NCBI RefSeq assembly: GCF_022846255.1
Contig: NZ_AP025682.1
DNA: 64,000 nt
Strand: one strand, 5' to 3'
Source: Escherichia coli
Lineage (GTDB): Bacteria > Pseudomonadota > Gammaproteobacteria > Enterobacterales > Enterobacteriaceae
Part shown: positions 3,499 through 57,243 of the stretch, one piece after another
How positions within the stretch are numbered: the stretch's first letter is position 1
How the letters are laid out: every line of letters begins with the position of its first letter
Notes under the pieces: model-generated
Told to the model about the DNA's origin: nothing
The model's database searches: none
The model's input: only the letters and a program-made list of their open reading frames with translations
Made by a program: the position numbers and the translations under genes

Positions 3499-3585
3499 AA
3501 AAAATAAGCCCGTGTAAGGGAGATTACACAGGCTAAGGAGGTGGTTCCTGGTACAGCTAGCATTTTATGGGTTATGTTTTTCAGC
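3499..3585 (-). ncRNA. cyaR: CyaR (RyeE) Hfq-dependent sRNA
   Basis: The reverse complement of 3499-3585 matches the 87-nt CyaR sequence as I recall it (GCTGAAAAACATAACCCATAAAATGCTAGCTGTACCAGGAACCACCTCCTTAGCC...CGGGCTTATTTTTT), including its intrinsic terminator, and lies immediately 3' of yegQ as expected. Confidence 0.85.
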
Positions 3586-3619
3586 GAAACGGATGATAAC
3601 CTTAATAAATGCAGCTGTA

Positions 3620-17669: not shown

Positions 17670-17815
17670 AGCCCCTCCCGAGGAAGGGGCCTTAAATAAG
17701 GAAAGGGTCATGATGAAGTGGATCATCATCGTGGTGCTCTTAGTGATTAGCTACCCAGCATACTAAGACTACCAGGGCGGGGGAAACCCCGCTCTACCCT
17801 CACTCCTGAAAGTAT
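17670..17815 (-). ncRNA. sibA: SibA-like antisense sRNA (type I antitoxin); ends approximate
   Basis: The minus strand carries an intrinsic terminator (aaggcccc-ttcctcggga-ggggctt + TTTTCCGTTT) at about 17675-17704, antisense to and fully overlapping the ibs ORF. The 5' end is not determinable from sequence. Confidence 0.5.
17710..17766 (+). CDS. ibsA: Ibs-family hydrophobic toxic peptide, 18 aa (MMKWIIIVVLLVISYPAY)
   Basis: Translated directly from the sequence; RBS aaggaaagg upstream; characteristic Ibs peptide. Confidence 0.7.
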   Translation: MMKWIIIVVLLVISYPAY

Positions 17816-17994
17816 GCCTTCACGGTCCAATTGTCAATCCGCAGACTTTGCAGTCTGCGATCCTGCCAGCAAATATTCTTTGCGAGTCGTTACGCAATAA
17901 TCACACTTGAAACTATTTTATCCGCAAGTCAGCGATAGACTGCATACAGGGCGAAAGGAGGTAAGCCGAAGATTTCAGCGGGACGCTGAAACGG

Positions 17995-18140
17995 GAAAGC
18001 CCCTCCCGAGGAAGGGGCCTTAAATAAGGAAAGGGTCATGATGAAGCTACTCATCATCGTGGTGCTCTTAGTCATTAGCTGGCCAGCTTACTAAGACTAC
18101 CAGGGCGGGGGAAACCCCGCTCTACCCTCACTCCTGAAAT
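17995..18140 (-). ncRNA. sibB: SibB-like antisense sRNA (type I antitoxin); ends approximate
   Basis: Second copy of the same terminator hairpin on the minus strand at about 17997-18022, antisense to the second ibs ORF. Confidence 0.5.
18038..18094 (+). CDS. ibsB: Ibs-family hydrophobic toxic peptide, 18 aa (MMKLLIIVVLLVISWPAY)
   Basis: Translated directly from the sequence; second repeat unit. Confidence 0.7.
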   Translation: MMKLLIIVVLLVISWPAY

Positions 18141-18311
18141 TATGTCACTCCGCCCTTAGTGTCAATCGACGGCTCTCCGTTCTTGCGAGGCGAATAGCAA
18201 AATTTTCTGCGCCGCCGGGCCTAATTCTGAAAGTTTCTTCGTTTGCTCTTATTTCATTATTGCAATCGGTATGATACCGGACCTCAATAATTCTCTAAGA
18301 AAGGATTTCTT

Positions 18312-18971
18312 ATGAGCGAACAAATCACGTTTGCCACCAGCGATTTTGCCAGTAACCCGGAACCACGTTGCCCCTGCATTTTGCTGCTGGATGTTTCTGG
18401 CTCGATGAGCGGCAGACCCATTAATGAACTTAACGCCGGATTGGTTACCTTTCGCGATGAGCTGCTTGCCGACCCGCTGGCCTTAAAAAGAGTGGAACTC
18501 GGTATTGTGACGTTCGGCCCAGTGCATGTGGAACAACCCTTTACCAGCGCCGCTAATTTTTTCCCGCCCATCCTGTTTGCCCATGGGGATACACCAATGG
18601 GCGCCGCCATTACCAAAGCCCTGAATATGGTTGAGGAGCGCAAACGTGAGTATCGCGCCAATGGTATTTCCTATTATCGTCCGTGGATTTTCCTGATTAC
18701 CGATGGCGCACCAACCGATGAGTGGCAGGCTGCTGCCAACAAGGTGTTTCAGGGGGAAGAAGATAAGAAGTTTGCCTTCTTTTCCATCGGTGTTCAGGGG
18801 GCGGATATGAAGACGCTGGCCCAAATCAGCGTTCGTCAGCCTTTGCCATTGCAGGGATTACAATTCCGTGAACTGTTTAGCTGGTTATCCAGTTCGCTGC
18901 GTTCGGTTTCCCGCTCCACGCCGGGAACGGAAGTTGTGCTGGAAGCGCCAAAAGGCTGGACGTCAGTGTGA
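18312..18971 (+). CDS. yegL: von Willebrand factor A (TerY-like) domain protein YegL
   Basis: 219 aa; MIDAS motif DVSGSMSG in a VWA fold; first gene of a three-gene operon. Confidence 0.9.
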
Positions 18972-19729
18972 GCTGGCGTCTGGTCTATGCATCAACCGTT
19001 GGAACGTCGCACATCAGCGCGGACTTGCCTTGCCAGGATGCCTGCCAGATGCAGGTTGCCTGGTTAAATGACCAGCAGCCATTATTGTCGGTATTTGTCG
19101 CTGATGGCGCAGGCAGTGTCTCGCAGGGTGGCGAAGGTGCGATGCTCGCCGTCAATGAAGCGATGGCTTATATGTCGCAAAAAGTGCAGGGCGGGGAATT
19201 GGGGCTTAATGATGTCCTCGCAACGGACATTGTGCTGACCATTCGTCAGCGACTTTTTGCCGAGGCGGAAGCCAAAGAATTAGCGGTTCGCGATTTTGCC
19301 TGCACGTTTTTGGGATTGATTTCATCAGCTAATGGCACCTTGATTATGCAGATTGGCGATGGCGGCGTGGTGGTAGATTTGGGTCACGGTTTGCAACTGC
19401 CGCTCACGCCGATGGTGGGGGAATATGCCAATATGACGCACTTCATTACCGATGACGATGCTGTTTCCAGACTGGAAACTTACACCAGTACTGAGCGTGC
19501 GCATAAAGTTGCAGCATTTACGGATGGTATTCAGCGACTGGCGTTAAATATGCTGGATAATTCTCCGCATGTGCCTTTCTTTACCCCGTTTTTCAATGGA
19601 CTGGCGTCAGCAACGCAGGAACAACTCGATTTATTACCTGAATTGTTAAAGCAGTTTTTGTCCAGCCCGACGGTAAACGAGCGTACCGATGATGATAAAA
19701 CGTTGGCACTGGCGCTGTGGTTACCATGA
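18968..19729 (+). CDS. yegK: PP2C-family Ser/Thr protein phosphatase YegK (PphC)
   Basis: 253 aa; GTG start overlaps the yegL stop (GTGA); PP2C-like motifs (FVADGAGS..., IGDGG). Confidence 0.88.
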
Positions 19730-21666
19730 AACCCACTTTATATACTGCTACTGGTGAGTGCGTTACGCCTGGCCGTGAACTGGGCAAAGGCGGTGAAGGT
19801 GCGGTTTATGATATCGAGGAGTTTGCCGATAGCGTCGCCAAGATTTATCACACGCCGCCACCCGCCTTAAAACAGGACAAACTTGCCTTTATGGCTGCGA
19901 CAGCTGACGCGCAGTTGTTGAATTATGTCGCCTGGCCGCAGGCAACGCTTCACGGTGGACGAGGCGGAAAAGTTATCGGTTTTATGATGCCAAAAGTTTC
20001 TGGTAAAGAACCGATTCATATGATCTATAGCCCGGCACATCGTCGCCAGAGTTACCCTCATTGTGCGTGGGATTTTCTACTCTATGTTGCGCGCAATATT
20101 GCTTCATCTTTTGCTACTGTTCATGAGCACGGGCACGTCGTGGGTGACGTAAACCAGAACAGCTTTATGGTAGGTCGCGACAGCAAAGTGGTGTTGATTG
20201 ATAGCGACTCCTTTCAGATTAATGCCAATGGTACACTGCATTTATGCGAAGTCGGCGTGTCGCATTTTACGCCGCCAGAGCTGCAAACCATGCCATCATT
20301 TGTCGGCTTTGAACGCACAGAAAATCACGATAATTTTGGCCTTGCGTTGCTGATATTTCACATCTTGTTTGGTGGGCGGCATCCTTATTCCGGTGTACCG
20401 CTTATCTCTGATGCGGGTAATGCGCTGGAGACGGATATTGCCCATTTCCGTTATGCCTACGCGTCAGATAATCAGCGACGTGGTTTAAAACCGCCGCCAC
20501 GATCGATTCCGCTGTCGATGTTACCGGGCGATGTTGAAGCCATGTTTCAGCAGGCATTCACGGAAAGTGGCGTGGCAACCGGGCGTCCGACGGCAAAAGC
20601 GTGGGTAGCGGCACTTGATTTACTACGCCAACAGTTAAAGAAATGTACCGTTTCGGCAATGCATGTTTACCCCGCTCATTTGACTGACTGCCCGTGGTGT
20701 GCGCTGGATAATCAAGGCGTTATCTATTTTATTGATCTCGGCGAAGAGGTCATTACCACCGGCGGTGATTTTGTGCTGGCGAGAGTCTGGGCGATGGTGA
20801 TGGCGTCAGTAGCACCGCCAGCATTGCAATTACCATTACCCGATCATTTCCAACCGACTGGCAGGCCGCTTCCTTTAGGCCTGTTAAGGCGTGAATACAT
20901 CATTCTGATTGAGATCGCACTGTCAGCGTTATCGCTGCTGCTTTGCGGCCTTCAGACAGAACCACGTTATATTATTTTGGTTCCTGTGCTGTCGGCTATC
21001 TGGATTATTGGCAGCCTGACAAGCAAAGCGTACAAAGCAGAAATCCAGCAACGCCGTGAGGCGTTTAATCGTGCGAAAATGGACTATGACCATTTAGTCA
21101 GCCAGATCCAACAGTTGGGCGGGCTGGAAGGTTTTATCGCCAAACGGACGATGCTCGAAAAAATGAAGGACGAAATTCTTGGGTTACCGGAAGAAGAAAA
21201 GCGCGATCTGGCAGCACTTCAGGACACCGCAAGGGAACGGCAGAAGCAGAAGTTTCTGGAGGGATTTTTTATTGATGTTGCCTCTATTCCCGGCGTTGGC
21301 CCTGCGCGTAAAGCGGCGTTACGGTCCTTTGGTATTGAAACAGCAGCGGATGTTACCCGACGGAGCGTTAAGCAAGTGAAAGGTTTTGGTGATCATCTGA
21401 CCCAGGCGGTTATCGACTGGAAAGCGAGCTGTGAACGCCGTTTTTTGTTCAGGCCGAACGAAGCGGTAACGCCTGCAGACAGACAAGCGGTAATGGCAAA
21501 AATGGCCGCCAAACGACATCGGCTGGAATCGGCGCTGACTGTCGGTGCGACAGAGTTGCAGCGATTCCGCCTTCATGCTCCAGCACGGACCATGCCGTTG
21601 ATGGAACCGCTACGTCAGGCGGCAGAAAAACTGGCTCAGGCGCAGGCTGATTTAAGCCGTTGCTGA
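19726..21666 (+). CDS. yegI: eukaryotic-like Ser/Thr protein kinase YegI with C-terminal transmembrane, coiled-coil and helix-hairpin-helix regions
   Basis: ATG at 19726 overlaps the yegK stop (ATGA). Gly-rich loop LGKGGEGAVY, a VAIK-like lysine (VAKIY) and a catalytic-loop-like VGDVNQNS; predicted TM helices (IILIEIALSALSLLLCGL, ILVPVLSAIWIIGSL) and an HhH-like IPGVGPARKAALRSFGI. Confidence 0.88.
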   Translation: MKPTLYTATGECVTPGRELGKGGEGAVYDIEEFADSVAKIYHTPPPALKQDKLAFMAATADAQLLNYVAWPQATLHGGRGGKVIGFMMPKVSGKEPIHMIYSPAHRRQSYPHCAWDFLLYVARNIASSFATVHEHGHVVGDVNQNSFMVGRDSKVVLIDSDSFQINANGTLHLCEVGVSHFTPPELQTMPSFVGFERTENHDNFGLALLIFHILFGGRHPYSGVPLISDAGNALETDIAHFRYAYASDNQRRGLKPPPRSIPLSMLPGDVEAMFQQAFTESGVATGRPTAKAWVAALDLLRQQLKKCTVSAMHVYPAHLTDCPWCALDNQGVIYFIDLGEEVITTGGDFVLARVWAMVMASVAPPALQLPLPDHFQPTGRPLPLGLLRREYIILIEIALSALSLLLCGLQTEPRYIILVPVLSAIWIIGSLTSKAYKAEIQQRREAFNRAKMDYDHLVSQIQQLGGLEGFIAKRTMLEKMKDEILGLPEEEKRDLAALQDTARERQKQKFLEGFFIDVASIPGVGPARKAALRSFGIETAADVTRRSVKQVKGFGDHLTQAVIDWKASCERRFLFRPNEAVTPADRQAVMAKMAAKRHRLESALTVGATELQRFRLHAPARTMPLMEPLRQAAEKLAQAQADLSRC

Positions 21667-21678
21667 GCCAGTTTTCAA

Positions 21679-23031
21679 TTAACGAAACACCACTTCCGCC
21701 CAGCGTGCCAGCCCGGCGGTGACGGAGCCAAAGTCATCGCCACCTGCAATCGGAATGCCCGGCAACTGTTCTGTCAGCGCTTTTTTAATCAGCGGTGAAC
21801 GGGCGCTACCGCCGGTCAGATAGATAACATCCGGTTTTTCCTGGGCGTTATCCAGCGCCAGTTGCACCTGTTCCAGAATCCGCGCCAGTGGCTGGTTGAG
21901 GGCGCTTTCCAGCCCTTGCTGGCTAATCAGCGTAGCCAGTTCATCGCTGATAAACGGCAGTGAGGCGCGGGTTTCCGCTACGCTTGAAAGCGCAATTTTG
22001 CTCTCTTCTGCGCTACGTACCAGGCGATAGCTTAAACGCTGACGCCAGACTTTCTGTAACAGGGCCACTTTTTCCGGTTCGCGGGCATCGCGTACCAGAT
22101 CGTTAAGCAGACGACCGTTGGCACTACTGTAGAAATCACTTTGCGCAGGTACGTCGTTGATGGCAACCGCATTCCACCACGGCAGAATCGGCAGGGCGAT
22201 GCCTTTTTCGGTTTCGCCACCCATGCCCAGTAACGGCATCAGGTTCTTAAACGCCAGTGCGATATCCAGATCGTTACCACCAATACGGCAACCACTGTGA
22301 CCCAGCAGGCTGGCTTCACGATCGAGACGCGAACGCCACTGCGGCCCCATCAGCAGCAATGAACAGTCAGTCGTACCACCGCCGATATCCACCACCAGCA
22401 CCCGTTTTTCTTCCTGCAAGGTGGCTTCGTAATCCAGCCCAGCCGCCACCGGCTCGTACTGGAATACCACGTCCTTAAACCCGGCACGCTTCGCTGCGCG
22501 CTCCAGAATCCCTTGTGCCTGGGCGTTTGCTTCATCGCCGCCCAGCCCCTGGAAGTTGATCGGGCGACCAATCACCGCCTGGGTAATTGCCTCCGGCAAT
22601 TGCGCCTGCGCCTGCTGGCGAATGTGCAACATCATTGCGCAGACCAGATCCTCAAACAGCGCTACCTGCTGCGGTTTTAAGCCGCTGGCACCGAGGAACG
22701 ATTTTGGTGATTTCACAAACCACACTTCTTCTGGATCATCAATGTACTGTGCCAGTGAGGAAAGACCGAACTGCACGCTTTTCGCCGTAACATCGATATC
22801 TTCTTCGCGGTTATAACGAATCGCCCGACGCAGCAGCGCCTGCGTTTCATCGTCGTCTGCCGGAACATCATGATAGCGGTACAGCCATTCGCTTACCGCT
22901 TCACGCGTTGGCGCGCAAAGCATTGAAGGCAGCAGCGTGCTGTCGTTTTCCATTTTCAGTAATTGCGGCTTACCGTCGCGCATGACCGCCACTGAACAGT
23001 TTGCTGTACCGTAATCAAAACCAATAAACAC
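21679..23031 (-). CDS. yegD: Hsp70/actin-fold ATPase family protein YegD
   Basis: 450 aa from GTG at 23031 (MFIGFDYGTANCSVAVM...), DnaK-like phosphate-binding motifs; convergent with yegI. The supplied ORF adds 21 N-terminal residues that I reject. Confidence 0.88.
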   Translation of the reverse strand: MFIGFDYGTANCSVAVMRDGKPQLLKMENDSTLLPSMLCAPTREAVSEWLYRYHDVPADDDETQALLRRAIRYNREEDIDVTAKSVQFGLSSLAQYIDDPEEVWFVKSPKSFLGASGLKPQQVALFEDLVCAMMLHIRQQAQAQLPEAITQAVIGRPINFQGLGGDEANAQAQGILERAAKRAGFKDVVFQYEPVAAGLDYEATLQEEKRVLVVDIGGGTTDCSLLLMGPQWRSRLDREASLLGHSGCRIGGNDLDIALAFKNLMPLLGMGGETEKGIALPILPWWNAVAINDVPAQSDFYSSANGRLLNDLVRDAREPEKVALLQKVWRQRLSYRLVRSAEESKIALSSVAETRASLPFISDELATLISQQGLESALNQPLARILEQVQLALDNAQEKPDVIYLTGGSARSPLIKKALTEQLPGIPIAGGDDFGSVTAGLARWAEVVFR

Positions 23032-23104
23032 GAAATAATCCCCATGCCGGTGAAGAAGGGGCGAGACTTTAGCGAAATGTTGCCGTCGCGACAACCGGAA
23101 TATG

Positions 23105-33038: not shown

Positions 33039-33077
33039 CAGTGTGTTGGTAGCTAAAAAGCCAGGGGCGGTAGCGTG
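33039..33077 (+). promoter_or_regulatory. JUMPstart element with ops site (GGCGGTAGCGTG at 33066-33077) in the colanic acid operon leader
   Basis: Exact ops consensus GGCGGTAGnnTG preceded by GGTAGC, about 180 bp upstream of wza; the RfaH-dependent anti-termination signal known for cps operons. Confidence 0.75.
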
Positions 33078-47503: not shown

Positions 47504-47603
47504 CCGTTGAATAATCAACCGGATTAATTCTCCGGTAAATAACGAAAAAACAAAATTGGCCGTTTCGGTCAGGGCCAACTATTGCCTGAAAAAGGGTAAC
47601 GAC

Positions 47604-57204: not shown

Positions 57205-57243
57205 CAGTGCTCTGGTAGCTGTAAAGCCAGGGGCGGTAGCGTG
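57205..57243 (+). promoter_or_regulatory. JUMPstart element with ops site (GGCGGTAGCGTG at 57232-57243) in the O-antigen operon leader
   Basis: Exact ops consensus preceded by GGTAGC, about 75 bp upstream of rmlB; the same 30-nt core (agccaggggcggtagcgtg) as the cps leader copy. Confidence 0.75.

What the first reader, a model, noticed from the sequence alone, without database searches (positions are those of the whole stretch)
19726..21666. YegI couples an atypical kinase domain to a Cys motif, two TM helices, a coiled coil and a helix-hairpin-helix
Read directly from the translation: after the kinase core comes CTVSAMHVYPAHLTDCPWC (a possible metal-binding knuckle), then two hydrophobic helices (IILIEIALSALSLLLCGL and ILVPVLSAIWIIGSL), a charged coiled-coil stretch, and IPGVGPARKAALRSFGIETAADV, which looks like an HhH nucleic-acid-binding motif. 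A membrane-anchored kinase with a possible DNA-binding tail is unusual and hints at nucleic-acid sensing.
Basis: seen in the sequence. Interest (0 to 1): 0.5.

Follow-up and report, generated by a model that had tools for sequence, protein, structure and literature searches.

The report
YegI membrane kinase with HhH tail
This gene is the Escherichia coli Ser/Thr kinase YegI, whose kinase activity, two membrane helices and helix-hairpin-helix tail are already published or in databases, so the reading is correct but not new; only the job of the DNA-binding-type tail is still unknown.

Summary
Window 19726-21666 (+) encodes a 646-aa protein 97% identical to E. coli YegI. It is the last gene of a translationally coupled yegL (vWA)-pphC (PP2C)-yegI operon found in 5416 of 5426 complete E. 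coli genomes.

- a divergent Hanks kinase;
- an invariant C-x5-H-x8-CPWC (CHCC) metal motif;
- a two-helix membrane hairpin;
- a long helical region;

Covariation shows the "coiled coil" is an antiparallel two-helix stalk (residues 434-511 against 583-645) with (HhH)2 at its tip.

The architecture is not unusual or new. Kinase activity and the N-in/C-in topology were shown experimentally (Rajagopalan & Dworkin 2020). COG4248 and NCBI already name the kinase-plus-HhH combination. The family has more than 3000 clusters at 50% identity, in bacteria and methanogenic archaea.

The vWA-PP2C-kinase order held in 80 of 80 testable loci, with no fourth conserved gene. That makes it a TerY-P-like phosphorylation triad.

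Nucleic-acid sensing remains plausible but untested. A SAM-like protein-interaction role is a serious rival.

The parts
18312..18971 (+). yegL: vWA-domain protein with an intact DxSxS MIDAS motif (DVSGS). First gene of the triad. Its stop overlaps the pphC start (GTGA).
   Evidence: Pfam VWA E = 1.1e-9 and VWA_2 E = 6.7e-7. ORF. Annotated yegL in E. coli genomes.
18968..19729 (+). pphC (yegK): PP2C-type Ser/Thr phosphatase. Second gene of the triad. Its stop overlaps the yegI start (ATGA). There is no yegJ insertion here, so this is the non-K-12 arrangement.
   Evidence: Pfam PP2C_2 E = 8.1e-52. PphC dephosphorylates autophosphorylated YegI in vitro (bioRxiv 10.1101/303594).
19726..21666 (+). 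yegI: the whole 646-aa ORF plus its stop codon.
   Evidence: Translation. 97% identity over 100% of the length to NCBI 'protein kinase YegI'. AlphaFold2 mean pLDDT 94.4, pTM 0.80.
19726..20631 (+). Divergent Hanks-type kinase domain, aa 1-302. P-loop GKGGEG at 20-25, Lys39, catalytic loop VGDVNQNS at 139-146, and DSDS at 159-162 in place of DFG.
   Evidence: Foldseek matches to PknB, Aurora, BRAF and similar kinases, TM-score about 0.6-0.73 normalised to the target. Pfam Pkinase hits 72 of 90 relatives but not this sequence. K39, D141, N143, D159, D161 and S162 are invariant. Kinase activity is published.
20635..20712 (+). CHCC metal-binding knuckle, aa 304-329 (C307-x5-H313-x8-C322-P-W-C325). 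A beta-hairpin followed by a helix N-terminus, which looks treble-clef-like.
   Evidence: C307, H313, C322, W324 and C325 are invariant in 90 of 90 relatives and H318 is not. The same spacing appears in nearly all 150 representatives. DSSP on the model gives strands 304-306 and 314-316 and helix 323-329.
20776..20805 (+). Conserved amphipathic linker helix, aa 351-360 (W355 nearly invariant). It may dock on the (HhH)2 domain.
   Evidence: AlphaFold2 helix 351-360. Covarying pairs 358-554, 356-563 and 357-607. This is suggestive only.
20890..20952 (+). Transmembrane helix 1, aa 389-409.
   Evidence: Kyte-Doolittle peak 2.31. AlphaFold2 helix 389-408. PhoA-LacZ fusions are cytoplasmic at residue 390 and periplasmic at 414.
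20968..21024 (+). Transmembrane helix 2, aa 415-433. It runs on without a break into the stalk helix.
   Evidence: Kyte-Doolittle peak 1.94. AlphaFold2 helix 418-465. Fusions are periplasmic or in-membrane at 432 and cytoplasmic at 439.
21025..21258 (+). Ascending stalk helix, aa 434-511. Charged, with single-residue kinks at 466, 486 and 501.
   Evidence: AlphaFold2 pLDDT 96-98. Antiparallel covariation with aa 583-645: 16 of the top 20 inter-helix pairs have i+j = 1078-1093, against 4.1 expected.
21268..21441 (+). (HhH)2 domain, aa 515-572. Hairpin 1 is GVGPARK (523-529) and hairpin 2 is GFG (553-555). The domain is cytoplasmic.
21472..21660 (+). Descending C-terminal stalk helix, aa 583-645. 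It returns toward the membrane face and carries the published autophosphorylation sites S602 and S644.
   Evidence: AlphaFold2 helix 583-645. Covariation. Phosphosites from bioRxiv 10.1101/819920.

Best explanation
This is YegI, the kinase of a self-contained three-gene phosphorylation switch: YegL (vWA), PphC (PP2C) and YegI. The switch has the architecture of a TerY-P triad.

Shown, here or in the literature:
- YegI is an active, Mn2+-preferring Ser kinase.
- It autophosphorylates in its activation loop (S162 is essential) with second-order kinetics.
- PphC dephosphorylates it.
- It sits in the inner membrane through a helical hairpin, with both ends in the cytoplasm.

Inferred from structure prediction and covariation:
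- TM2 continues into a long helix that pairs antiparallel with the C-terminal helix. Together they form a stalk carrying an (HhH)2 domain at its far end.
- The kinase and its invariant CHCC knuckle are joined to TM1 by a linker that appears to run along the stalk. This would place the kinase-proximal helix 351-360 beside the (HhH)2 domain.

Proposed mechanism, not shown:
- The (HhH)2 domain, possibly together with the Zn knuckle, binds nucleic-acid backbone without sequence specificity.
- Binding concentrates or reorients membrane-tethered YegI molecules so that they trans-autophosphorylate and then phosphorylate targets.
- Candidate targets are YegL, PphC or unknown proteins.
- PphC resets the switch.
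- The vWA MIDAS site provides the input or output protein contact.

The physiological role is most likely a stress or invader-DNA response, as proposed for TerY-P modules.

The confidence of 0.5 applies to the proposed nucleic-acid-binding mechanism. The identity as YegI, the kinase, the membrane hairpin and the triad are near certain.
For: Identity and operon:
- 97% identity to YegI.
- The locus is annotated yegL-pphC-yegI in 5416 of 5426 complete E. coli genomes.
- The start and stop codons of adjacent genes overlap.

Biochemistry and topology come from the literature.

Domains:
- Kinase fold.
- CHCC motif invariant in 90 of 90 relatives.
- HHH_5 hit.
- Family-profile hits only to HhH modules of DNA or RNA enzymes.
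- Both GhG hairpins and R528/K529 are conserved. Net charge of the domain is positive in 77% of members.
- The (HhH)2 block is as conserved as the kinase.

Stalk:
- AlphaFold2 pLDDT 94.4 and pTM 0.80.
- Antiparallel covariation, P about 2e-8.

Triad:
- vWA, then PP2C, then kinase in 80 of 80 loci that have enough upstream sequence.
- No other conserved neighbour.
- In variants where (HhH)2 precedes the membrane segment, it stays on the kinase side (L005).

Link to nucleic acids or defence:
- TerY-P kinases carry a Zn ribbon or an OB fold at the same position, and one such module defends against T7-like phages.
- One homologue sits among defence-type genes: BrxR, JetB, a SLFN-type helicase and a ScoMcrA-type nuclease.
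- Overproducing YegI or YegL raises endogenous DNA damage.
Against: - No experiment shows that YegI binds DNA or RNA.
- HhH sequence scores are marginal: E = 7.6e-4 for this protein, and only 4 of 90 relatives reach E <= 1e-3.
- PADLOC models for TerY-P do not recognise the three proteins. TerY against YegL gives only E = 0.017, and PphC gives nothing.
- The locus is core in E. coli rather than in a variable defence island.
- Published work found no condition that gives robust expression of the locus: pphC transcription was not observed, and yegI was detected only at very low levels in stationary phase.
- The DNA-damage-up screen also scored many membrane proteins, including the neighbours MdtA and MdtB, so it is not specific.
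- I could not inspect model coordinates. The juxtaposition of kinase and (HhH)2 rests on a few covarying pairs.
Confidence: 0.5

Rival explanations
1. The C-terminal (HhH)2/SAM-like domain is a protein-protein module and not a nucleic-acid binder. It would either oligomerise YegI to give the dimerisation-dependent activation, or dock YegL or PphC onto the kinase. The membrane hairpin would only localise the switch.
For: - YegI activation is second order in enzyme concentration.
- Covarying pairs link the domain to the kinase-proximal helix 351-360.
- HhH sequence scores are marginal.
Against: - Both Gly-hydrophobic-Gly hairpins and the basic pair R528/K529 are conserved across phyla. That signature belongs to backbone-binding HhH motifs. 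My recollection is that SAM domains lack it; I did not test this.
- Every sequence-profile hit with E below 1 is an HhH module of a nucleic-acid enzyme or a ribosomal protein.
Confidence: 0.3
2. YegI is mainly a membrane or envelope-stress sensor. The TM hairpin would detect a perturbation such as depolarisation, lipid change or phage penetration and pass it down the antiparallel stalk to the kinase, much as HAMP or chemoreceptor stalks do. The (HhH)2 domain would serve only as a structural cap for the stalk.
For: - TM2 is continuous with the stalk helix, and the stalk pairing is strongly supported.
- There is no extracytoplasmic sensor domain; the periplasmic loop is only about 5 residues.
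- Some relatives add periplasmic modules after an extra TM segment, such as SH3_3 or TPR, which suggests envelope inputs.
Against: - The TM segments are the least conserved part of the protein in sequence (about 1.0 bit per column). The (HhH)2 block is as conserved as the catalytic domain (2.46 bits per column). A mere cap should not be under that much constraint.
- Hairpin glycines and basic residues are specifically conserved.
Confidence: 0.15
3. The motifs are chance resemblances in a poorly conserved C-terminal extension and have no function.
For: This sequence gives no Pfam kinase hit and only a marginal HHH_5 hit.
Against: - End-to-end conservation down to 32-35% identity in bacteria and archaea.
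- Invariant CHCC residues and conserved hairpins.
- pLDDT of 94.
- Covariation consistent with the predicted fold.
Confidence: 0.01

Closest known systems
[quoted passage not shown]
   Same: It is the same protein: 97% identity over the full length, in the same yegL-pphC-yegI locus. The published kinase activity, autophosphorylation sites and two-pass topology map onto the same residues.
   Different: Only allelic differences. This window has the B-strain or pathogen arrangement, without yegJ between pphC and yegI. The characterisation papers do not discuss the Zn motif, the stalk or the (HhH)2 domain.
TerY-P (TerY-phosphorylation) triad of Anantharaman, Iyer & Aravind 2012; the TerY-P anti-phage system of Gao et al. 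2020
   Same: - A three-gene module of a vWA protein, a PP2C phosphatase and a Ser/Thr kinase.
- The kinase carries a small Zn-binding element, or a nucleic-acid-type domain, C-terminal to the catalytic domain.
- The module is self-contained and found in varied genomic contexts.
   Different: - YegI adds a membrane hairpin, an antiparallel stalk and an (HhH)2 domain in place of an OB fold.
- PADLOC TerY-P models do not recognise the proteins.
- There are no ter genes, no McrBC/CoCoNuT genes and no conserved DNA-processing neighbours.
- No anti-phage activity has been shown for yegLKI.
Membrane Hanks-type bacterial kinases such as M. tuberculosis PknB and B. subtilis PrkC
   Same: Bilobal kinase fold (PknB is among the top Foldseek hits). 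Activation by autophosphorylation with a partner PP2C phosphatase. Membrane anchored.
   Different: - PknB and PrkC have one TM helix and extracellular PASTA sensor domains. YegI has a hairpin and no extracytoplasmic domain.
- YegI replaces HRD with VGD and DFG with DSD.
- It has cytoplasmic Zn and (HhH)2 modules.
(HhH)2 domains of the SAM-like fold: Rad51 N-terminal domain, UvrC C-terminus, Hel308 domain 5, PolX, RNA polymerase alpha C-terminal domain
   Different: Here the domain sits at the tip of a membrane-anchored helical stalk in a protein kinase. Its ligand is unknown.

Membership tests
Protein kinase YegI / COG4248 | Full-length sequence identity to E. coli YegI and the same locus | tested here: met
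   97% identity over 100% of the length. Locus annotated yegL-pphC-yegI in 5416 of 5426 genomes.
Hanks-type (eukaryotic-like) Ser/Thr kinase | Bilobal protein-kinase fold | tested here: met
   AlphaFold2 model with pLDDT 94. Foldseek E about 1e-7 to CaMKII, PknB, BRAF and Aurora, TM-score up to 0.73 normalised to the target.
Hanks-type (eukaryotic-like) Ser/Thr kinase | Match to Pfam Pkinase (PF00069) | tested here: inconclusive
   This sequence gives no hit at E <= 10, but 72 of 90 full-length relatives hit at E <= 1e-3.
Hanks-type (eukaryotic-like) Ser/Thr kinase | Canonical catalytic motifs (VAIK Lys, HRD, DFG, catalytic-loop Asn) | tested here: inconclusive
   K39, D141 and D159 are present and invariant. 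HRD is VGD, DFG is DSD, and the canonical Asn position is Ser146, although N143 is invariant. The literature reports 7 of 10 conserved residues and an active enzyme.
Hanks-type (eukaryotic-like) Ser/Thr kinase | Phosphotransfer activity | not testable with these tools
   Published: autophosphorylation on Ser, Mn2+ preferred over Mg2+, staurosporine-sensitive.
TerY-P triad | vWA, PP2C and Ser/Thr kinase encoded together in one operon | tested here: met
   Window: VWA E = 1.1e-9 and PP2C_2 E = 8e-52, with overlapping start and stop codons. Relatives: 80 of 80 loci.
TerY-P triad | Recognition by the PADLOC TerY-P models | tested here: not met
   TerY model PDLC02224 against YegL gives E = 0.017 (12.6 bits). 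PphC gives no hit. The kinase gives only weak MkoA and PD-T4-6 hits.
TerY-P triad | Kinase fused C-terminally to a Zn ribbon or an OB fold | tested here: met
   An invariant CHCC motif lies directly after the kinase domain. No OB fold; an (HhH)2 domain is present instead. The feature is defined.
TerY-P triad | Association with ter genes or DNA-processing or restriction modules | tested here: not met
   No conserved neighbour beyond the triad in 87 loci. The window's neighbours are mdtA, sib RNAs, yegD and alkA. One locus of the 87 lies in a defence-type neighbourhood.
TerY-P triad | Anti-phage or tellurite-resistance phenotype | not testable with these tools
   I found no report for yegLKI in the searched literature.
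(HhH)2 domain (SAM-like fold) | Two consecutive helix-hairpin-helix motifs with Gly-hydrophobic-Gly hairpins | tested here: met
   GVG at 523-525 and GFG at 553-555. Conservation: G525 84/90, G553 85/90, G555 86/90.
(HhH)2 domain (SAM-like fold) | HMM or profile match to HhH families | tested here: met
   HHH_5 E = 7.6e-4, covering only model positions 1-37 of 57. Family profile against PDB sequences: L32e (HhH)2 1.4e-3, Pol IV 4.5e-3, UvrC 0.05. These scores are marginal but all point the same way.
(HhH)2 domain (SAM-like fold) | Fold similarity to solved (HhH)2 domains | tested here: met
(HhH)2 domain (SAM-like fold) | Non-sequence-specific nucleic-acid binding | not testable with these tools
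   Needs gel-shift or anisotropy measurements.
Zinc knuckle / treble-clef-like finger | Four conserved Cys/His ligands with the right spacing and secondary structure | tested here: met
   C307, H313, C322 and C325 in 90 of 90 relatives. Beta-hairpin at 304-316, with the CPWC at the helix N-terminus, 323-329.
Zinc knuckle / treble-clef-like finger | Bound metal | not testable with these tools
   Needs ICP-MS or PAR assay, or a solved structure.
Two-pass inner-membrane protein | Two TM helices, N-in/C-in | tested here: met
   Hydropathy peaks 2.31 and 1.94. AlphaFold2 helices. Conserved hydrophobic block in 87 of 90 relatives. PhoA-LacZ fusions in the literature.
Coiled coil | Paired amphipathic helices | tested here: met
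   Antiparallel covariation between aa 434-511 and 583-645: 16 of the top 20 pairs on one antidiagonal, P about 2e-8, with the band chosen after seeing the data. I did not run a classical heptad predictor. Intra- and intermolecular pairing cannot be told apart.

The most novel reading that the evidence does not exclude
YegL-PphC-YegI is a membrane-anchored innate-immune or stress switch, core to E. coli, that detects nucleic acid at the inner face of the membrane. The nucleic acid could be incoming phage or plasmid DNA, or a displaced nucleoid. The (HhH)2 tip and the Zn knuckle next to the kinase would do the detecting. DNA binding would cluster YegI and trigger trans-autophosphorylation and an as yet unknown output. 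This would be a third, HhH-bearing branch of TerY-P systems, spread by horizontal transfer as far as methanogenic archaea.
Probability: 0.15. Interest if true: 0.7.

Novelty: already known. Interest (0 to 1): 0.3.

Why it matters
YegI is one of the few eukaryotic-like Ser/Thr kinases in E. coli, and its stimulus and substrates are unknown. The literature also reports that yegI mutations recur in long-term evolution experiments.

Published characterisation stopped at the kinase domain and the membrane topology. It did not address the C-terminal half. That half turns out to be as conserved as the catalytic domain, and it is predicted to form a stalk presenting an (HhH)2 domain beside the kinase.

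This gives a concrete, cheap experiment: test whether nucleic acid binds the tail and changes kinase activity. If it does, a long-standing orphan signalling system in the best-studied bacterium would gain an input. TerY-P-type triads generally would gain a mechanistic model.

As a scan finding, though, it restates existing annotation.

Tried and rejected
- PADLOC search for TerY-P membership: only sub-threshold hits. I therefore do not file the locus as a recognised TerY-P system, only as one with the same architecture.
- PHROG hits (phrog_37888, 37072, 28389) match the three proteins end to end with huge scores and have no annotated function. I read them as host genes swept into prophage predictions, not as evidence of phage origin. 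I did not verify this.
- Sequence search of the PDB with the full-family profile: no solved relative, only weak kinase and HhH hits.
- The founding TerY-P paper (PMC4104200) is not held in the library. Its content is cited second-hand, through.
- A first neighbourhood count with my own crude ORF caller gave false 'missing' vWA and PP2C genes. I replaced it with six-frame HMM searches.
- Search for a fourth conserved gene: none. The next most common neighbour is a lineage-specific TetR-like gene in 8 loci. yegD is adjacent only in Escherichia, so I rejected it as a system component.
- The first-reader idea that H318 belongs to the metal site: rejected, since it is conserved in only 31 of 90 relatives.
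- A classical coiled-coil predictor was not available, and model coordinates cannot be inspected. I used covariation instead.
- The promoter and terminator scan of the locus gave nothing above the shuffled expectation.
Full report
**1. What is at the coordinates**

Window 19726-21666 (+) is an uninterrupted ORF of 646 codons plus a stop. The mechanical ORF list starts it at a GTG 9 nt upstream.

Two ORFs on the same strand precede it, and their ends overlap the next start:
- 18312-18971, whose stop overlaps a GTG start;
- 18968-19729, whose stop overlaps the ATG at 19726.

Pfam identifies the two upstream proteins as a von Willebrand A domain (VWA, E = 1.1e-9) and a PP2C phosphatase (PP2C_2, E = 8.1e-52).

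Megablast against complete E. coli genomes finds the 3.4-kb stretch in 5416 of 5426 genomes at 90-99% identity. It is annotated there as yegL, pphC and yegI. The protein is 97% identical over its full length to NCBI 'protein kinase YegI'. The window is therefore Escherichia chromosome. The neighbours are mdtA upstream and yegD, alkA and yegE downstream. It has the arrangement without yegJ, as described for B strains and pathogens.

**2. Checking the observation**

These are not chance features.

A phmmer scan of 1.84 billion cluster representatives gave 9675 hits at E <= 1e-3 and 3245 at E <= 1e-30. Most of the best 150 are 640-660 aa long and align from residue about 5 to about 644 at 35-51% identity.

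In an alignment of 90 diverse full-length members (32-63% identity to the query), the invariant columns include:
- the kinase residues K39, D141, N143, D159, D161, S162, E185 and D202;
- the motif residues C307, H313, C322, W324 and C325;
- L532, A540 and W565 in the tail.

H318 is conserved in only 31 of 90 sequences. The metal site is therefore C-x5-H-x8-C-P-W-C (CHCC).

Per-column information is 2.49 bits for the kinase, 2.12 for the Zn region and about 1.0 for the membrane segments, which are conserved only as hydrophobic blocks. It is 1.45 for the helical region, 2.46 for aa 515-572 and 1.74 for the tail. The HhH region is thus as constrained as the catalytic domain.

**3. The individual domains**

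*Kinase.* Pfam gives no kinase hit for this sequence. Even so, 72 of 90 relatives match Pkinase at E <= 1e-3. The AlphaFold2 model (pLDDT 94.4, pTM 0.80) matches Hanks kinases, including PknB, with TM-scores up to 0.73 normalised to the target. 'Atypical kinase' is correct: VGD replaces HRD and DSD replaces DFG.

*Metal motif.* DSSP on the model puts C307 and H313 on a beta-hairpin (strands 304-306 and 314-316). C322 and C325 sit at the start of helix 323-329. That is the layout of a treble-clef-like knuckle. This is an inference, because no metal is modelled.

*Membrane hairpin.* Kyte-Doolittle peaks are 2.31 and 1.94, and the model has helices 389-408 and 418 onward. A hydrophobic block with a median of 37 residues is present in 87 of 90 relatives.

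*HhH.* Pfam HHH_5 matches aa 515-551 at E = 7.6e-4. There is a second hairpin, GFG at 553-555, after the first, GVG at 523-525. The glycines are nearly invariant, and R528/K529 are mostly basic.

A profile of aa 506-586 from 52 relatives was searched against PDB sequences. All hits with E below 1 are HhH modules: haloarchaeal L32e (1.4e-3), Pol IV (4.5e-3), UvrC C-terminus (0.05), Rev1, the Rad51 N-terminal domain and Hel308. Below them come phage Phi92 gp135 (0.92) and ComEA (0.96), both close to chance level.

**4. The 'coiled coil'**

The model shows TM2 continuing as helix 418-465. Helices 467-485, 487-500 and 502-511 follow, separated by single-residue breaks. The (HhH)2 domain comes next, and then one 63-residue helix, 583-645, all at pLDDT 91-98.

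I could not inspect coordinates, so I tested the packing by mean-field direct-coupling analysis. The input was 289 family sequences (206.8 effective) over aa 301-646.

The strongest long-range pairs are 480-600, 477-607, 451-640, 491-590, 473-610 and 494-592. Of the top 20 pairs between the two helices, 16 have i+j between 1078 and 1093, against 4.1 expected (hypergeometric P about 2e-8). The band was chosen after seeing the data.

This is the signature of an antiparallel two-helix pairing along the whole length. The (HhH)2 domain therefore sits at the far end of a stalk, and the C-terminus returns to the membrane face. Pairs 528-558 and 525-555 support the pseudo-symmetric packing of the two HhH motifs.

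Weaker pairs hint at more: 358-554, 356-563, 357-607, 383-443 and 374-477. They suggest that the conserved linker helix 351-360 touches the (HhH)2 domain and that the linker to TM1 runs along the stalk. That would place the kinase and Zn module beside the (HhH)2 domain, consistent with the high pTM. I treat this as suggestive. Covariation cannot separate intra- from intermolecular pairing.

**5. What is already known**

Rajagopalan, Nagle and Dworkin (2018) and Rajagopalan and Dworkin (2020) reported the following:
- PphC is a PP2C-like phosphatase that dephosphorylates YegI.
- YegI is an active Ser kinase that prefers Mn2+ and is inhibited by staurosporine.
- It autophosphorylates on S153, S160, S162, S602 and S644. 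S162 is essential.
- Activation is second order in enzyme concentration.
- PhoA-LacZ fusions are cytoplasmic at residues 340, 390, 439 and 646, and periplasmic or in-membrane at 414 and 432. YegI is therefore a two-pass, N-in/C-in inner-membrane protein.

Those papers do not mention the Zn motif, the helical stalk or HhH.

The kinase-plus-HhH combination is nevertheless old annotation. [quoted passage not shown] NCBI calls many members 'helix-hairpin-helix domain-containing protein', and JGI calls them 'DNA-binding helix-hairpin-helix protein with protein kinase domain'.

**6. Genomic context across the family**

I kept 80 loci. They come from:
- Gamma-, Beta- and Alphaproteobacteria;
- Actinobacteria (Georgenia, Frankia);
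- Planctomycetota, Acidobacteria, Chlorobiaceae, Synergistaceae and Desulfocapsa;
- about a dozen Methanoregula and Methanomicrobiales archaeal assemblies.

Six-frame HMM searches show vWA, then PP2C, then kinase on one strand in all 80 loci that have at least 1500 nt upstream. In 57 loci my strict spacing rule was met. In the other 23 the vWA hit lies immediately upstream but overlaps the over-extended PP2C envelope. Gene calls for six other homologues show the same order.

Clustering of all neighbouring ORFs finds no further conserved partner. The next family occurs in 8 related genomes and is TetR-like. yegD is adjacent only in Escherichia.

The module is thus a self-contained triad that moves between genomes.

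One homologue, in Piscinibacter, sits among defence-type genes: a SLFN-like helicase, MazG-like, ScoMcrA/NOV_C, HIT, SNase, BrxR and JetB. Others sit among housekeeping genes.

Variant architectures keep the (HhH)2 domain on the kinase side of the membrane (kinase-Zn-(HhH)2-TM-SH3_3 in L005). Others add an extra TM segment plus TPR repeats.

**7. Comparison with known systems**

The architecture is that of the TerY-phosphorylation (TerY-P) triad: a vWA protein, a PP2C and a Ser/Thr kinase. In that triad the kinase carries a C-terminal zinc ribbon, or an OB fold in the version Gao et al. 2020 showed to protect against T7-like phages. Authors have speculated that these appendages bind nucleic acid.

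YegI shares the triad and the Zn element directly after the kinase. It adds a membrane hairpin, a stalk and an (HhH)2 domain.

Membership in the recognised defence system is not supported by sequence. PADLOC's TerY model scores YegL at only E = 0.017. PphC has no hit. The kinase has only weak hits to MkoA and PD-T4-6 kinases. I therefore describe it as TerY-P-like in how it is built, not as a demonstrated TerY-P member.

**8. Mechanism and rivals**

The best-supported reading is a reversible phosphorylation switch: YegI autophosphorylates and PphC resets it. The kinase is tethered to the inner membrane, and its conserved cytoplasmic (HhH)2 tip, with the Zn knuckle, binds nucleic-acid backbone. 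Binding would either trigger clustering and trans-autophosphorylation or target the kinase to DNA-associated substrates.

Evidence for a nucleic-acid ligand:
- conservation of both GhG hairpins and the basic pair;
- the best structural and sequence matches, which are to nucleic-acid enzymes;
- the analogy with the OB fold and Zn ribbon of TerY-P kinases.

Circumstantially, overproducing YegI or YegL raises endogenous DNA damage at least 5-fold in a genome-wide screen. So does overproducing many membrane proteins, including the neighbours MdtA and MdtB.

The main rival is a SAM-like protein-interaction or oligomerisation role, supported by the many SAM, NusA and alpha-C-terminal-domain matches. 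A second rival is a membrane-stress sensor in which the stalk transmits and the tip is only structural. The low sequence conservation of the TM segments and the high conservation of the tip argue against that second rival.

Published work found no condition that gives robust expression of the locus. Transcription of pphC was not observed, and yegI was detected only at very low levels in stationary phase. No substrates are known either.

**9. Verdict**

The domain calls are right, 'unusual' is wrong, and nucleic-acid sensing is untested.

The thing itself is a known, named and partly characterised protein with a database-level domain description, so I rate novelty as 'already known'. The residual interest is that the most conserved non-catalytic part of an orphan E. 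coli kinase has never been studied experimentally, and that yields a simple decisive test.

Noticed in passing
window 17695-17837 (-) and 18023-18165 (-): Two full-length Sib RNAs (Rfam RF00113, 137 and 141 bits) lie in the 733-bp mdtA-yegL spacer. From memory these are the antitoxin RNAs of the ibs/sib type I toxin-antitoxin pairs known at this E. coli locus. They occupy the region where a yegL promoter would be expected.
   Followed up: partly
window 18968-18971 and 19726-19729: The three triad genes are coupled by 4-nt overlaps between stop and start (GTGA and ATGA). There is no yegJ between pphC and yegI, so this is the non-K-12 arrangement described for B strains and pathogens.
   Followed up: yes
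window 21679-23094 (-): yegD (Hsp70/actin-fold ATPase; NCBIfam PRK11678, 805 bits) converges on yegI with only 12 nt between the two stop codons. The listed ORF begins 21 codons upstream of where the family model starts. yegD is adjacent to the triad only in Escherichia loci (3 of 87), so it is not a conserved partner.
   Followed up: partly
L049, L060, L063, L064, L066, L068, L070, L074, L081, L082, L084: Full-length YegI-like kinases (34-37% identity) occur in Methanoregula and Methanomicrobiales archaeal assemblies. Those with enough upstream sequence also have the vWA and PP2C genes. This implies inter-domain horizontal transfer of the whole module.
   Followed up: partly
L005 4180-6525 (P0174); L007 1865-4885 (P0146): Variant architectures occur within the same triad. 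One is kinase-Zn-(HhH)2, then a TM segment, then a weak SH3_3 hit. The other is a complete YegI-like protein extended by a further TM segment and faint TPR hits. Several other representatives (P0173, P0195, P0202, P0211, P0247, P0262) also have the HhH pair before the TM segment.
   Followed up: partly
L001 280-12266: In Piscinibacter aquaticus the triad is flanked by defence-type genes: SLFN-g3 helicase, MazG-like, ScoMcrA_N/NOV_C, HIT, SNase, BrxR (WYL) and JetB. This is a possible defence-island context that is not seen in E. coli.
   Followed up: no
window 18312-21666 (proteins against PHROGs): PHROG families 28389, 37072 and 37888 match YegL, PphC and YegI end to end with very high scores and have no annotated function. 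They are probably host genes captured in prophage predictions rather than true phage families.
   Followed up: no
L003 3571-3882 (-); L005 2039-2344 (+): A small DUF4236 (PF14020) gene lies next to the triad in two unrelated loci. It did not reach the 5-locus cut-off of my neighbour-clustering list.
   Followed up: no
window 3502-3587 (-), 33039-33077 (+), 47550-47599 (+), 57205-57243 (+): Other Rfam hits in the window: CyaR/RyeE sRNA, two JUMPstart elements and an algC RNA motif. They are unrelated to the finding.
   Followed up: no
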